A DNA stretch of 64,000 bases from assembly GCF_017348835.2 (NCBI RefSeq), contig NZ_CP071375.1; one strand, written 5' to 3'. This DNA comes from Escherichia coli (GTDB lineage: Bacteria; Pseudomonadota; Gammaproteobacteria; Enterobacterales; Enterobacteriaceae). Positions 48,501-54,500 of the stretch are shown here, piece by piece. The position numbers were made by a program. Within the stretch, counting starts at the first letter, position 1; each line of letters opens with the position of its first letter.

Positions 48501-51500
48501 GCTTCGGGCTGTTTGCGCATTGATGCTGAGATACGCTTCCAGTCTTCGCGATCCTTGTCGATAACCTCATTTGTCGCCCAGCGATGGATGGTACCGTCAA
48601 TGTTTCCTGCATCCACATCACCGGGCCAGAGGGCGCAGGCCAGTTCATTGTCGAGTGTTTTCCATGTCTGTTTGTATTCGCGGCGAATGGCAACAGTGAC
48701 AGCCCCGGTTTTTTCAGCAGCGTTTTCAGTGTTCTGTTGGTTGACTCTGGCGCGGGTGAGATCAACAACAGACGTGTATTTTCCGGTTTCCTTGCGTTCA
48801 CCTTCGCGACGTTTTTTCCAGATGCGCATCTCTGCCTGAATTTCAGGCCATTTAGCGCCAGGCTCACATTTATGCTTAACCCACCCGATGGCATGCAGTT
48901 TAAGTTCAGGATACATGGCGTTAACTTCTGGCATTTTCATCAACGCTTCAACGATATGTCCGCCGAATGTTGCCATGTCTTCCTGTAGTAATTCCTGTGC
49001 GCTAATCACCATATCAACGGTGATGTTTTCGCATGTGTCGAATTTAACCAGGACTGCGTTCTGTACTTCAGGGGACAGCTTGTCAAAATTGACGTTCATC
49101 GGATCGGATTCTGGTTCGACCGGTACAAAGGAAGCTGACTCCTCATCCCAGCGGTTTTCCTGCATATATTCGGTATCCCAGGAATCGAGGGCAGGGCGGG
49201 GTATGCCGGGTTTATCCTCGCAGACAATAAATTTATAAGCGCAGTCCTGAGCTGCCGGGAATTGCTCCAGAAATTGCCAGTGAAATTTTGCGCGTGCGCG
49301 ACGCTCATCACCGGCTTCAATGGCAGTGGCCACCGCAACAGCGCTATCTTCTTTTATGGCCTGTTCGTCAGGAATAGCAGCGCAAATAAAGATTTTACTC
49401 ATTGTGTTTTAACCTCATTACAGATTTAAGGGTGAACAAATCCCTGCCATTGCTGGCATATAAAAATGAAACCGGATATTAATTACGGTGCTGTTTTAAA
49501 GTCCTGCCGGTATTTCGTTATTATTAGTGTGAGTAGTTTTATCTACCGGATAACAGTTACCGGGAATTTTTTGTTCTGCTGCTGCAGCCATGCATTCTTT
49601 CATTGAACCGTATAAGCCAGTCACCAGCTCAAGAGATTCGCCGGAAACAAGATAAACTGTCAGAACGAGTGCAAATGTTGTATTCATTGTTTATATCCTT
49701 TTTGCAGCAGGTCCAGACGAGCCAGCATTGAAGGAATGCATACTTCATTTAACAGGTCCTGCTCGAGTTTTCTCTGCTTAATGGCGTCTTCAATAAATGT
49801 TTTGTCTCCAGTGATAACGCCAATTTCGAAACGAAGTTCAGACGTGCTGGCATTACATGATAACTTTTCCATTATCGCGTCCTCAACAATGAATTTTGTG
49901 ATGCGGTGCCTGGTGCCTCCAGGTGACGTTAACCAGTTAACAATTAACGCCGGATACAGAGCATTCTCGTTACTCAGCAAATGACCGCTTTACCGATTTA
50001 ACTGTTCCGCGTGCGCTGAGCCGCATTCACCGCATCACAAAATTCACTTTTAAAAAAGGGCGGCAGAGCAGTCACGGAGTAAAACTGATACCGCCAAATG
50101 TCACCAGAATATTGATAACAGAGGGCGTTGCAGCGGGGTTGTCACTTAAGCGTATGGTCAACCTGACAACCCGGTGTCCTCAACGGGGAAAGAATAACCC
50201 CGCCATACTTACCGCCGCGCCATTTCGCGGATTGCCACAACCGGAAGCGCACGGTCGAATTAAATTTAACGACGGCTCTAAGGGAGAAGGACTTCGCCGT
50301 GCACTTTCGTGTTATGCCCTGACTTTTCAGGGATATATCCTTTCAGTAAACTGTCAGTGCCGGATTCTTATCTGTGTCCGGCGCACGACCACACGTAGCA
50401 GCGTGTTGGTCTCCATTTTTAATTCAGCCCTTAATGGAGGATAAAATGCCAAACAAACCATGCCCTGCCTGTAACGCTCTTTCTGGCTTTTTAGAGAAGG
50501 GCGGTTATTACATTTTTAACTGTCCAGAACATGTTGAATTTCATATATCAAAACTTGACAGTATCATTACAAAGCCAAATCAGTATCAGTCTGATTTACT
50601 GAATAAAGAGTTAAACGCCGCCCGAGATTAAGGGCGTAGTGGCCCATTAAAAATATTGCAAAGACCAACTATTGTTGAACTGGATTAAACCAGTAATTCT
50701 CTATTGCTCTTATTGTTACCATCGGATGATTGCCGGGGGTTATTTTAAGTTCGGGAGGAAAAGGCTCTCCATCAGCAGCCATCATTGAGTATGTGAAATC
50801 CGCCGACGCAGTCCCTTTCATGATAATTCCGAATTTTTCAAGTAATGAGAGCAGTTCCGGTAATCCTGTGTCATCTGAATAACTTTCCTCATAGAAAGAA
50901 GCGATTGCCGCAGGAGATGACAGTTCTCGCTCTGCAATTTTTTTGTAGTTTTCCAGAGTTCTTTTTTTGAATACTTTTCCTCGACATGAAAACCCATCAC
51001 CGAGGCAATCCGCTTTGCAGTTTCTTCAGTATTCTGGTTGTTTGTTACCGAAACAGAGTACAATCCGGTAAACGCATCGCGCACATTACGAGCCATATTA
51101 TCAATGTATTTCTTCGTTGCAGATTCTAATTCAACTTCGTTCAGACGTTGGTGAAGTGCATGTGCTGCAATTTCCTGGATTTCTTTTAGTAAATCTTTAA
51201 ATTCCATCTTTAACTCCGTTAGTCGTTAGATTTTGCCGAACTGGAAAGCGCCTGTTTAAACTCACTGAAGCTGAGAGCTTCCTCGCCTTCGGCAAGGCCT
51301 TTGAACCGCCCCGGGTTTCCTGGAGAGTGTTTTATCTGTGAACTCAGGCTGCCAGATCATTATTTCCGATGGAAGCATAATAAGCTTTTTCTGCTTCTGC
51401 CGGAGGAATATGGCCCAGCCTTTCCAGCAATCGTCGATTGTTATACCAGTCCACCCACGTTAGTGTGGCCAGTTCCACTTCTGCACGGTTTTTCCAGCTC

Positions 51501-54500
51501 TTACGGTGTATTACCTCCGCTTTGTAAAGACCATTGATGCTCTCAGCCATCGCGTTGTCATACGAGTCGCCAGTACTCCCTGTTGATGCCAGTAATCCGG
51601 CTTCCTTAAGCCGCTGCGTGTAGGCCAGCGATACATACTGAGAACCTTTATCACTGTGATGGATTGTGCCGGACGGCCGACGGGCCCACAACGCCTGCTC
51701 CAGTGCATCCAGCACGAATGTTGTTTCCATGGATGATGAGACCTGCCATCCCACGATGTATCCGGCGAACACATCAATGATGAACGCCACATAAACGAAG
51801 CCCTGCCATGTGCTTACCCAGGTAAAATCAGCCACCCACAACTGGTCTGGACGTTCTGCCACGAACTGACGGTTTACGCGGTCGCATGCGGCAACGGCTT
51901 TCCGGCTGACGGTAGTGCGGACCTTTTTACCCCGGAGAACACCGGCAAGTCCCATAACTGCCATGAGACGTGCCACAGTGCATCTGGCCACTCTGATACC
52001 TTCCCGTAACAACTGACGCCAGACTTTACGCACACCGTATACCTGGTGATTTTCATCGTATACGCGCTGTATCTCTTTCTTCAGCCAGTCATCGTGCTGC
52101 GCACGGGCACTGCGTTTATCCGGATGATGTCGCTGTTGCTGACAATGGTAATACGTTGACGGGGCAATATGCAGTTCGCTGCATACCGGTCCGACCCCGT
52201 ACTGCTCACGCAGCTTATCCAGCAGTGGCATCATTTTTTCCAGAGGCGGTCGAACTCCGCCTTCGCAAAATAAGCGGAAGCCTGGCGAAGGATATCGTTA
52301 CTGCGGCGCAGTTCACGATTTTCACGTTCCAGCTCTTTCAGACGCTGACGTTCAGCGGTGGTGAGTCCACCATCACCACTCCCGGTATCCCGCTCATGCT
52401 GGCGAACCCAGACACGCAGAGTCTCCGGCGTACAGCCAATCTTTGGGGCAATGGAACAAATTGCCGCCCACTGTGAGTCATATTCATCCTGACTTTCCAG
52501 AACCATACGAATCGCCCGCTGACGGACTTCGGGGGAAAAACGAGTATTTTTAGTCATCCTGTTTACCTCTTTCTCAGGGAGTTTAGTCTCCAGGATTTCC
52601 GGGGCGGTTCACTTCGAAGTATTCTTCGTAAGCCTTTTCCATGATTGTGTCGAAATCCATATCACTCACCTGAGTTTCTTTCCAGCCAGCGACGGGCACC
52701 ATTTTCGGTTTTAAACGTTTTGCTTTTGGTATACGTCATCGCGGTGAATGTACCGTCCTGGTTGGGAAACACGCCGTACACCAGAGATTCGTTGTTGCCA
52801 AGATCGATAGTATCCATGTTGACCTCATTTCCCCTTAACGCCGGGTAGCGGAACAAAAACCTGCTGCATAGTTATTAAAGTTGAACCCTGCCGTCATGTT
52901 CATACGCCTCGGGCTGGCTACTTACCCCCTGACCACTGCTTGGTAACTCGAAGTATTGCCCGGCGTTCTGTGGGGCGGGGTGGGTGGTTGGTGTATGTAA
53001 TCTACAATTAAAAACTGTTTTGTGTCAACAGTTTTTAATTGTTGTTTTGGGCAAAAAAATCCCTCGAAAGAGGGAGTATGAAAATTGTTCAACTCAGATA
53101 GAGAAGGGAAATTGTCGCCGAGAATGTGTCACGCTTACAATCTCAATGCTTGAAGCAGCTACTCTGTACAGGATTATGTAGTTAGGGTGGGTCACGATCT
53201 CTCTCAATCCAGAAACCCGTTCGCTTGGTGGATATAAGTACGGATGCTCAGATAGAGGTAATACCGATGTTTCAATGCGTATTTTTAGTCTACGTGCTGC
53301 CGGTGGGTTCTCCTTGGCGATGTAAGTTATGATCTGGCGCAAATCATCGCGAGCAGACGGTAGCCATAAAATGGGTAACATTACTCGCTCTTGTTAGTTA
53401 CAGCAATTTGAGCAATAAGATTTTCCATTTCAGCCATTACCTCGTCATGTGGAATTGCGGGGCGAGTGTCTGCAAGGCTTGACGTTACTTTAGTGCGCAA
53501 CCATTCGTTGTAACTGTTTTCTTGTTCGGTAGTTTCGAATTCTGAAACTATCGGAGAAAGGGCTGTACCCATGGCATAACTCCTCTTCTTGTACTGTGGT
53601 CACGCCCGGCGGCTTTTTTGTGCCGCCAGCCACCTAGCAATGGTTTCTTCCATTGATTTTTTCTTGTCTTTGATTTCTTGAAGCATTTTTTCTTGGTCTT
53701 CCTCAGGAAACGCACTAAAAGCTTGGAGCAGTTCGCGTTGGCGAGGACCAATTTTCATCGTGTCAGGGGTGAAAATTGGCTCACACTCTTCAGGAGGCAA
53801 TAAAAACCAATGCAATGGATGCCCTGAAACCTCAACCAGTTTATCCAAACTTGAGGCTTTAGGTGTAGCCTTACCGCTGACCCATTGTTGAACAGTTTGT
53901 TGTGTCACACCAATTCTACGGGCAAGCTCAGCCTGGCTCCATCCAGTTTCCTGAAGAAGCTTGCTGATTCTGTACATAGATACTTCTAGGGCGCTCATCA
54001 TTATTCAATTTTACAGGTAAATACTGTTAAAAGCATCACAATAAAAAACTGTTGATTGCATACAGTTTTTTATTGTAGTCTTTGCTTATAGTTTTTAGAG
54101 GAGGGCAAAATGCTAGATAGCACTCGCGAAAAAATTAGGCAGAAATACACTCAGGCTGAAATAGGTCGTTATATGGGGGTCGCTCAACAGACTGTTTGGC
54201 AATGGTTTAGCTTTGGCGTTCCCCCAAAGCAGGTAATTCCGTTATGCCAACTAATGAAGTGGGAAGTTACCCCGCATGAAATCCGCCCAGATATTTATCC
54301 TAACCCAACCGACGGTTTACCTGTTGGATGTAAGGTTAACACATCAAATGCGCCGGAGTTGATTCATGAAAATCAAGCATGAACACATCCGCATGGCGAT
54401 GAATGCCTGGGCGCATCCGGACGGCGAAAAAGTACCGGCTGCGAAAATTACCAAAGCGTATTTCGAGCTGGGAATGACGTTCCCGGAACTGTATGACGAC

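What the first reader, a model, noticed from the sequence alone, without database searches (positions are those of the whole stretch)
51299..53040. IS629-like insertion splits the leftward early operon between the OL-like operator and the dicF/dicB module, disrupting a small ydaF-like ORF
Copy 1 has a 3-bp direct repeat (CTT). Removing the IS and one repeat copy joins the flanks into a continuous 42-codon ORF on the minus strand (MDFDTIMEKAYEEYFEGLAEGEEALSFSEFKQALSSSAKSND). The IS therefore lies inside a small early gene and between the putative leftward promoter/operator and the toxic dicF/dicB genes, which would be expected to block their transcription. That fits selection for silencing host-killing functions in a domesticated prophage.
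Basis: seen in the sequence. Interest (0 to 1): 0.5.

Follow-up and report, generated by a model that had tools for sequence, protein, structure and literature searches.

The report
IS629-type element interrupting prophage gene ydfB
An ordinary, intact jumping gene (IS629/IS1203 type) has landed in ydfB, a small prophage gene of unknown function that lies upstream of the cell-division inhibitors DicF and DicB; the insertion is real and recent, but nothing shows that it silences those genes or was selected to do so.

Summary
The structural observation holds. A 1310-bp IS3-family element of the IS629/IS1203 group lies at 51302-52611 on the minus strand, flanked by a 3-bp CTT duplication. Removing it in silico restores a 42-codon ORF. 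That ORF is ydfB, not a ydaF-like gene: it matches K-12 Qin YdfB at 41 of 42 residues, and the YdaF homologue is the intact neighbour ydfA. The element sits 0.4 kb downstream of a PL-like promoter whose palindromic operator recurs at the PR-like promoter. It sits upstream of a 129-aa gene, DicF, dicB, a ydfD-like gene and exo, so the position claim is right. This is a Qin-type dicBF operon, which in K-12 is driven from one promoter upstream of ydfA. The functional reading is inference only. The element is co-oriented with the operon. It has no recognisable intrinsic terminator and no C-rich tract on the sense strand, and it creates no fusion promoter. The selection argument has no support: the site is occupied in 1 of 5426 complete E. 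coli genomes (PE164, about 30 copies of this element) and empty in 431. RefSeq already annotates the insertion in PE164. Ordinary, low interest.

The parts
51302..52611 (-). Intact IS3-family insertion sequence of the IS629/IS1203 group, 1310 bp
   Evidence: Ends and length. 96.1% nt identity to a copy that RefSeq annotates as IS1203 family in O157:H7 OK1, and 99.7% to the second copy in the window. RefSeq annotates 'IS3 family transposase, programmed frameshift' at the same site in PE164.
51299..51301 (.). Target-site duplication CTT, copy on the IRR side
   Evidence: Empty sites in relatives carry a single CTT.
52612..52614 (.). Target-site duplication CTT, copy on the IRL side
52231..52557 (-). 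IS orfA (108 aa)
   Evidence: Matches NCBIfam IS3 transposase profile positions 1-86.
51344..52234 (-). IS orfB (296 aa, catalytic part)
   Evidence: NCBIfam NF033516 at 312.7 bits (cut-off 160), profile positions 93-369.
52160..52276 (-). ALIL frameshift-stimulating pseudoknot around the A6 slippery run at 52234-52239
   Evidence: Rfam RF01497, 121.5 bits against a gathering score of 50. A6 run.
52615..52660 (-). ydfB 5' fragment (codons 1-16). It now runs into the IS, giving MDFDTIMEKAYEEYFE+VNRPGNPGD*
51219..51301 (-). ydfB 3' fragment, without a start codon
   Evidence: Annotated as a ydfB pseudogene 'missing N-terminus' in PE164..
52662..52817 (-). ydfA (DUF1391), intact. This is the real YdaF homologue. 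Its stop lies 1 nt before the ydfB ATG
   Evidence: 100% identical to K-12 YdfA. Score 223 against Rac YdaF.
52999..53028 (-). PL-like sigma-70 promoter, TTGACA-18-TAGATT
   Evidence: The best promoter match in 49400-54400, 10 of 12 positions.
53004..53042 (.). Operator-like palindrome overlapping the PL-like promoter
   Evidence: 16-nt arms. A 78-83% identical palindrome overlaps the PR-like promoter at 54038-54076.
53060..53075 (-). Terminator-like hairpin with a T-run that ends the repressor-relBE unit, just upstream of the PL-like promoter
50818..51207 (-). 129-aa gene of unknown function, at the position held by ydfC in Qin; first intact gene downstream of the IS
   Evidence: phrog_1363, E 3.9e-50, unknown function. 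Annotated as hypothetical.
50058..50109 (-). DicF sRNA with its own terminator
   Evidence: Rfam RF00039, 77 bits. Hairpin with U-run at about 50059.
49684..49872 (-). dicB (62 aa)
   Evidence: NCBIfam NF049927, 123.7 bits against a cut-off of 100.

Best explanation
This is a recent, lineage-specific transposition of an intact IS629/IS1203-group element into ydfB. ydfB is the second gene of a Qin-type dicBF (PL) operon in a lambdoid, effector-carrying prophage next to yccA. Shown: the insertion made a 3-bp CTT duplication and truncated YdfB after residue 16. It also put 1.3 kb of co-oriented IS DNA between the repressor-controlled PL-like promoter and the rest of the operon (129-aa gene, dicF, dicB, ydfD-like gene, exo, then the DUF4224 gene and int). 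Inferred: any transcript from the PL-like promoter must cross the IS. Because orfB is read mainly after a frameshift, about 0.9 kb of that RNA would be thinly translated. This could cause partial Rho-dependent polarity on every distal gene, not only on dicF and dicB. The extent is unknown, because the IS carries no recognisable terminator in this direction. The event is best read as neutral or nearly neutral IS expansion into dispensable, already repressed prophage DNA, not as an adaptive silencing event.
For: IS anatomy. Duplication and exact 1313-bp difference from empty sites. The restored ORF is YdfB; phrog_2061, E 3.5e-27. Promoter and operator shared with the PR-like promoter. DicF and DicB intact. 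Qin operon transcribed from one promoter upstream of ydfA: PMC10448788 and PMC5069750. Site occupied in 1 of 5426 genomes, empty in 431. PE164 has 32-34 places matching the IS. The window is identical to PE164 over 29500-62057 except for 3 SNPs inside the IS. IS insertions elsewhere around the same immunity region in other strains.
Against: No expression data exist for this strain, so neither 'neutral' nor 'partly polar' has been measured. Two further independent IS insertions upstream of dicF/dicB were met by chance: an IS3-family element in the 3' end of ydfA in KE47 and ISKpn26 in the 129-aa gene in SCPM-O-B-7615. A systematic survey could therefore still show enrichment. The lineage also carries a repressor missense change (Q75P) and a change in the PR-like -10 hexamer, whose effect on repression is unknown.
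Confidence: 0.8

Rival explanations
1. One reading: the IS is a polar block that shuts off dicF/dicB transcription from the PL-like promoter, and it was retained because it protects the host from these toxic products as the prophage decays.
For: The IS lies between the only known promoter type of this operon and dicF/dicB. IS insertions are classically polar (established knowledge). orfB is largely untranslated without the frameshift. Two other strains carry independent IS insertions upstream of dicB. In PE164 the prophage looks defective: the large terminase gene and nleH are frameshifted and there are three IS elements.
Against: No sense-strand terminator lies in the IS, and the sense RNA is G-rich with no C>G window. 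431 genomes keep the identical operon uninterrupted, against 1 that carries the IS. The dicBF operon is widely retained, sometimes in several copies per genome (PMC5069750). The repressor gene and operators are present, so toxicity is already controlled. Other IS629-type hits nearby fall outside the operon.
Confidence: 0.13
2. The IS rewires the operon instead of silencing it. Transcription from the IS's own weak promoter, or a fusion promoter at the IRR end, reads out into the 129-aa gene, dicF and dicB, giving low expression that the phage repressor does not control.
For: The IS is co-oriented with the operon and has no terminator at its IRR end on the sense strand. IS3-family elements carry an outward -35 element in the IRR that can form fusion promoters (review PMC9330008).
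Against: No promoter-like site (at least 9 of 12 positions) lies on the minus strand in the IS or across the IRR/flank junction. Reading the junction sequence shows no -10 hexamer at 16-18 nt from any -35-like hexamer in the IRR. The native promoters of IS3-family elements are weak.
Confidence: 0.06
3. The insertion is an assembly artefact, a repeat wrongly placed in the assembly.
For: The three differences from PE164 all lie inside the IS, two of them at positions that also vary among the other IS copies. This could reflect repeat polishing.
Against: Both junctions, with a clean 3-bp duplication, are present here and in the independent complete assembly of PE164.
Confidence: 0.01

Closest known systems
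IS629 / IS1203 (IS3 family, IS3 group) as found in EHEC O157:H7 prophages
   Same: 1310 bp; TG...CA imperfect terminal inverted repeats; orfA and orfB with a -1 frameshift at an A6 run and an ALIL pseudoknot; 3-bp target duplication; located in prophage DNA.
   Different: 51 nucleotide differences (96.1% identity) from the O157:H7 OK1 copy that RefSeq names IS1203 family. OrfA is 106/108 and OrfB 286/295 identical. It is therefore a variant within the group and not the O157 allele. No comparison with the ISfinder reference sequences was possible.
dicBF operon of the Qin cryptic prophage of E. coli K-12 (ydfA-ydfB-ydfC-dicF-dicB-ydfD)
   Same: ydfA is 100% and ydfB 41/42 identical. DicF, DicB and a DUF1482 (ydfD-like) gene follow in the same order. 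A DicA-like repressor gene lies upstream in the same direction, and a PL-like promoter lies just before ydfA.
   Different: ydfC is replaced by an unrelated 129-aa gene. A relBE-type toxin-antitoxin pair lies between the repressor gene and the promoter. The promoter and operator sequences are unrelated to dicBp, so the two should differ in immunity specificity. The repressor scores 54.6 bits against the DicA model, below its cut-off of 101. Here ydfB is split by the IS.
IS629 insertions in the early regions of Stx prophages (phiPA2 / phiPA8)
   Same: The same type of element inserted in or between early genes of a lambdoid prophage, changing a phenotype through gene disruption (PMC10810198).
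   Different: In phiPA2 the disrupted gene has a demonstrated function (a methyltransferase). Here the disrupted gene, ydfB, has no known function and no phenotype has been tested.

Membership tests
IS3 family insertion sequence (IS629/IS1203 group) | Transposase in two overlapping frames (orfA, orfB) matching the IS3 transposase profile | tested here: met
   OrfA matches NF033516 positions 1-86. OrfB matches positions 93-369 at 312.7 bits, above the cut-off of 160.
IS3 family insertion sequence (IS629/IS1203 group) | Programmed -1 frameshift signal (slippery A-run plus downstream structure) | tested here: met
   A6 run at 52234-52239 inside an ALIL pseudoknot scoring 121.5 bits against 50. 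PGAP annotates a 'programmed frameshift' in PE164.
IS3 family insertion sequence (IS629/IS1203 group) | Imperfect terminal inverted repeats ending 5'-TG...CA-3' | tested here: met
   13 of 13 terminal nt and 23 of the first 27 nt match between the ends.
IS3 family insertion sequence (IS629/IS1203 group) | 3-4 bp target-site duplication | tested here: met
   CTT on both sides. Empty sites differ by exactly 1310+3 bp.
IS3 family insertion sequence (IS629/IS1203 group) | At least 95% nucleotide identity to the named element (ISfinder isoform convention, recalled from memory) | tested here: inconclusive
   96.1% identity to a copy that RefSeq annotates as IS1203 family. The ISfinder reference sequences of IS629, IS1203 and IS3411 were not available.
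YdfB (Qin prophage small protein) | Sequence identity to K-12 YdfB and position immediately after ydfA | tested here: met
   41/42 identical to K-12 YdfB and 42/42 to WP_000344963.1, which PGAP names 'protein YdfB'. The ATG lies 1 nt after the ydfA stop.
   Local alignment score 15 over 8 residues. YdaF instead matches the neighbouring gene at 52662-52817 with score 223. No Pfam family matches the restored ORF.
Qin-type dicBF operon | DicF RNA and DicB protein downstream of ydfA/ydfB on one strand | tested here: met
   DicF 77 bits against 48. DicB 123.7 bits against 100. All lie on the minus strand.
Qin-type dicBF operon | A single repressor-controlled promoter upstream of ydfA drives the whole operon | not testable with these tools
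   The promoter and operator are predicted only. Transcription was shown only for K-12 Qin (PMC10448788).

The most novel reading that the evidence does not exclude
The co-oriented IS, which has no terminator in this direction, changes how the whole early-left operon is expressed. Either it acts as a Rho-dependent barrier that, on induction, lowers not only DicF and DicB but also exo and the DUF4224 and int genes at the operon's distal end, which would tend to lock the prophage in place. Or read-out from the IS gives DicF and DicB a low expression that the repressor does not control. In the second case, the lineage-specific repressor change (Q75P) and the change in the PR-like -10 hexamer would be part of the same adjustment.
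Probability: 0.1. Interest if true: 0.3.

Novelty: already known. Interest (0 to 1): 0.12.

Why it matters
It matters little. IS629-type insertions in lambdoid prophages of pathogenic E. coli are commonplace. This one is already annotated in a public RefSeq genome (PE164) as an IS3-family transposase next to a ydfB pseudogene. Its modest value is as a natural allele for one experiment: testing whether an IS629 element in the sense orientation is polar on a dicBF operon and on the distal recombination and integration genes. It also corrects the gene name from ydaF-like to ydfB. As it stands, it is no evidence for selection against prophage toxicity.

Tried and rejected
1. 'ydaF-like' label: rejected after alignment with Rac YdaF and YdaG.

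2. Intrinsic terminator inside the IS on the operon's strand: none found by the consensus scan. My own hairpin-plus-U-run scan with ViennaRNA over 53000-49400 found only the DicF terminator and one weak site at 50196.

3. Rho-utilisation-like C-rich, G-poor windows in the IS sense RNA: none. This is a crude heuristic.

4. Fusion or outward promoter at the IRR junction, or an internal promoter between the IS and dicF. Only one weak match (9 of 12, at 50771-50742), and the total number of sites was no higher than in shuffled sequence (6 found, 7.3 expected).

5. A structured antitermination RNA (put- or nut-like) in the 175-nt leader after the PL-like promoter, which could override polarity. The fold is no better than shuffles (z = +0.70), and no Rfam match appeared even at E <= 1.

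6. NCBIfam and Pfam searches for a function of YdfB, YdfA and the 129-aa protein: no NCBIfam match for any of them and no Pfam match for YdfB. PHROGs gave only families of unknown function.

Only incidental cases are reported.

8. Literature on polarity specific to IS629: none found.
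Full report
**1. The observation**

Reading 50800-53400 and a script confirm a 1310-bp element at 51302-52611. Its ends are TGAACCGCCCCGG...CCGGGGCGGTTCA. The first 13 nt are identical between the inverted ends, and 23 of the first 27 match. CTT lies directly on each side (51299-51301 and 52612-52614).

On the minus strand the element carries orfA (108 aa, 52557-52231) and orfB (296 aa, 52234-51344). Together they cover the NCBIfam IS3-transposase profile: positions 1-86 and 93-369, with OrfB at 312.7 bits against a cut-off of 160. 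An A6 run at 52234-52239 lies inside a full-length ALIL frameshift pseudoknot (121.5 bits against 50).

The element is 99.7% identical to a second copy in the window (60033-61342, + strand). It is 96.1% identical to a copy that RefSeq names 'IS1203 family' in O157:H7 strain OK1. 'IS629-like' is therefore a fair description. I could not compare it with the ISfinder reference sequences.

**2. The duplication and the restored ORF are real**

Deleting the IS and one CTT gives MDFDTIMEKAYEEYFEGLAEGEEALSFSEFKQALSSSAKSND* on the minus strand.

- A 5-kb query across the site finds many genomes whose match spans exactly 3688 bp, which is 5001 minus 1313.
- The excised window aligns without gaps to strain 12089, with 3 mismatches in 3688 bp.
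- In those IS-free genomes PGAP annotates the ORF as 'protein YdfB' (WP_000344963.1, 42/42 identical).
- K-12 Qin YdfB differs only in its last residue.
- The ORF matches phrog_2061 (E 3.5e-27, unknown function) and has no Pfam or NCBIfam family.
- Its ATG lies 1 nt after the stop of ydfA, which suggests translational coupling.

**3. The gene name is wrong**

Rac YdaF (DUF1391) aligns with the neighbouring intact gene at 52662-52817 (score 223). It does not align meaningfully with the restored ORF (score 15), and neither does YdaG (score 22). The disrupted gene is ydfB. In PE164, RefSeq already marks the 3' remnant as a ydfB pseudogene next to an 'IS3 family transposase'.

**4. The surroundings**

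The window is essentially the yccA-adjacent lambdoid prophage of porcine strain PE164. The two are identical over 29500-62057 except for three SNPs, all inside this IS copy.

Reading leftward on the minus strand, the region contains:

- a DicA-like repressor gene (133 aa; 54.6 bits against the DicA model, below its cut-off) and a RelB/RelE-type toxin-antitoxin pair;
- a terminator-like hairpin (53075-53060);
- the best sigma-70 match of the region, TTGACA-18-TAGATT at 53028-52999 (10 of 12 positions);
- then ydfA, ydfB interrupted by the IS, a 129-aa gene, DicF, dicB, a DUF1482 (ydfD-like) gene, an 823-aa exonuclease gene, a DUF4224 gene and int.

The promoter lies inside a palindrome (53004-53042). 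A 78-83% identical palindrome, with the same layout relative to a -35 and -10 pair, overlaps the divergent PR-like promoter at 54038-54076.

The promoter and operator sequence is unrelated to Qin dicBp. Homology to Qin begins about 25 bp before ydfA.

**5. What is known about the homologous operon**

In K-12 Qin the polycistronic transcript starts at dicBp, upstream of ydfA, and covers ydfABC-dicF-dicB-ydfD. [quoted passage not shown] They note that one older study had suggested a promoter upstream of dicB (PMC10448788).

[quoted passage not shown] The operon is widely retained in E. coli despite its toxicity, sometimes in several copies per genome (PMC5069750).

The IS therefore does sit between the likely sole promoter and dicF/dicB.

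**6. Does it block transcription?**

This is inference, not a finding. The transposase genes point the same way as the operon, so a transcript from the PL-like promoter enters at the IRL end and leaves at the IRR end.

- The consensus scan finds no terminator-like site on that strand inside the IS.
- My own hairpin-plus-U-run scan over 53000-49400 finds only the DicF terminator and one weak site at 50196.
- The sense RNA of the IS is G-rich (G 382, C 314), and no 80-nt window has C/G >= 1.5 with low G.

Some polarity remains plausible for two reasons. IS insertions are classically polar (established knowledge). And orfB is read mainly after a frameshift, which would leave about 0.9 kb thinly translated. 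The degree is unknown.

I found no sign of the opposite effect. No promoter-like site lies in the IS or across the IRR junction on the minus strand, although IS3-family elements can form fusion promoters through an outward -35 in the IRR (PMC9330008).

I also found no sign of a cis-acting antitermination RNA in the 175-nt leader (z = +0.70; no Rfam match at E <= 1).

**7. Was it selected?**

The evidence points the other way.

- The left junction is present in 1 of 5426 complete E. coli genomes, PE164.
- The identical empty site is present in 431 genomes, and the ydfA-ydfB block in 3722.
- PE164 has 32-34 places matching this IS, so a hit in dispensable prophage DNA is expected.
- The two other genomes with an IS629-type element in this 5-kb neighbourhood carry it in ydaT (OK1) and in the ECs1072-family gene (F3398). 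Both lie on the other side of the immunity region.

Two independent insertions upstream of dicF/dicB did turn up by chance: ISKpn26 in the 129-aa gene of SCPM-O-B-7615, and an IS3-family element in the 3' end of ydfA in KE47. A systematic survey would be needed to say whether that exceeds expectation.

The word 'domesticated' is only partly justified. In PE164 the prophage is full-length, from int through the tail fibres and effector genes. It does have a frameshifted large terminase gene, a frameshifted nleH and three IS elements.

**8. Verdict**

This is a real, cleanly resolved and already annotated IS629-group insertion into ydfB of a Qin-type dicBF operon. The structural claims hold apart from the gene name. 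The silencing claim is untested, with no supporting sequence signal. The selection claim is unsupported. It is ordinary and of low interest.

Noticed in passing
window 60033-61342 (+): Second copy of the same IS, with 4 nt differences from copy 1 and flanked by a 3-bp CCA duplication. It lies in the prophage between an alpha/beta-hydrolase gene and the hok/sok locus. It is identical to the corresponding copy in PE164.
   Followed up: partly
window 51461, 51545, 52232: The only differences from PE164 over 29500-62057 are three SNPs inside IS copy 1. Two of them lie at positions that also vary among the other IS copies. One changes the orfA stop and orfB start region (AAAAAATGATG here, AAAAAATAATG in PE164). 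This suggests gene conversion between copies or differences in repeat polishing.
   Followed up: partly
window 53778, 54079, 50958: SNPs that this window and PE164 carry relative to the IS-free loci checked. The repressor carries Q75P. The putative -10 hexamer of the PR-like promoter is TAGTCT where the three IS-free loci read have TAGGCT. The 129-aa protein carries F84L. Their effect on repression is unknown.
   Followed up: no
window 53094-53572 (-): A RelB/RelE-type toxin-antitoxin pair sits between the repressor gene and the PL-like promoter, the position that rexAB holds in lambda. It is followed by a terminator-like hairpin at 53075-53060.
   Followed up: no
window 61489-61655 (+) and about 62058: A sok antitoxin RNA match (102 bits) lies directly after IS copy 2. 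In PE164 an IS481-family transposase is annotated between this sok and hokD. The window and PE164 differ by small indels from 62058 on, for example a 6-bp CAGCGC repeat unit.
   Followed up: partly
window 52960-52992 (-): The first 30 nt or so of the predicted leader after the PL-like promoter are very C-rich and G-poor (ACCAACCACCCACCCCGCCCCACAGAAC). This resembles a Rho-loading tract and could be an additional attenuator of the operon.
   Followed up: no
window 50446-50631 (+): A conserved 61-aa ORF with a CxxC motif (phrog_10133, E 7e-48) lies on the opposite strand inside the leftward operon, between the 129-aa gene and DicF.
   Followed up: no
window 49900-50060 (-): A sub-threshold Rfam match to the sRNA STnc100 (29.4 bits against a gathering score of 47, E 8.5e-4) lies in the spacer between DicF and dicB.
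   Followed up: no
L008 (PE164 3054446-3056373 and 3032055-3032966), outside the window: In PE164 the same prophage has a frameshifted large terminase gene and a frameshifted nleH. It also carries nleB2, a partial nleC, nleF and sodC.
   Followed up: no
L006 3662-4971 (KE47) and L004 2278-3258 (SCPM-O-B-7615): Independent IS insertions upstream of dicB in related operons. KE47 has an IS3-family element, 95.8% identical to this one, in the 3' end of ydfA. SCPM-O-B-7615 has ISKpn26 in the 129-aa gene.
   Followed up: partly
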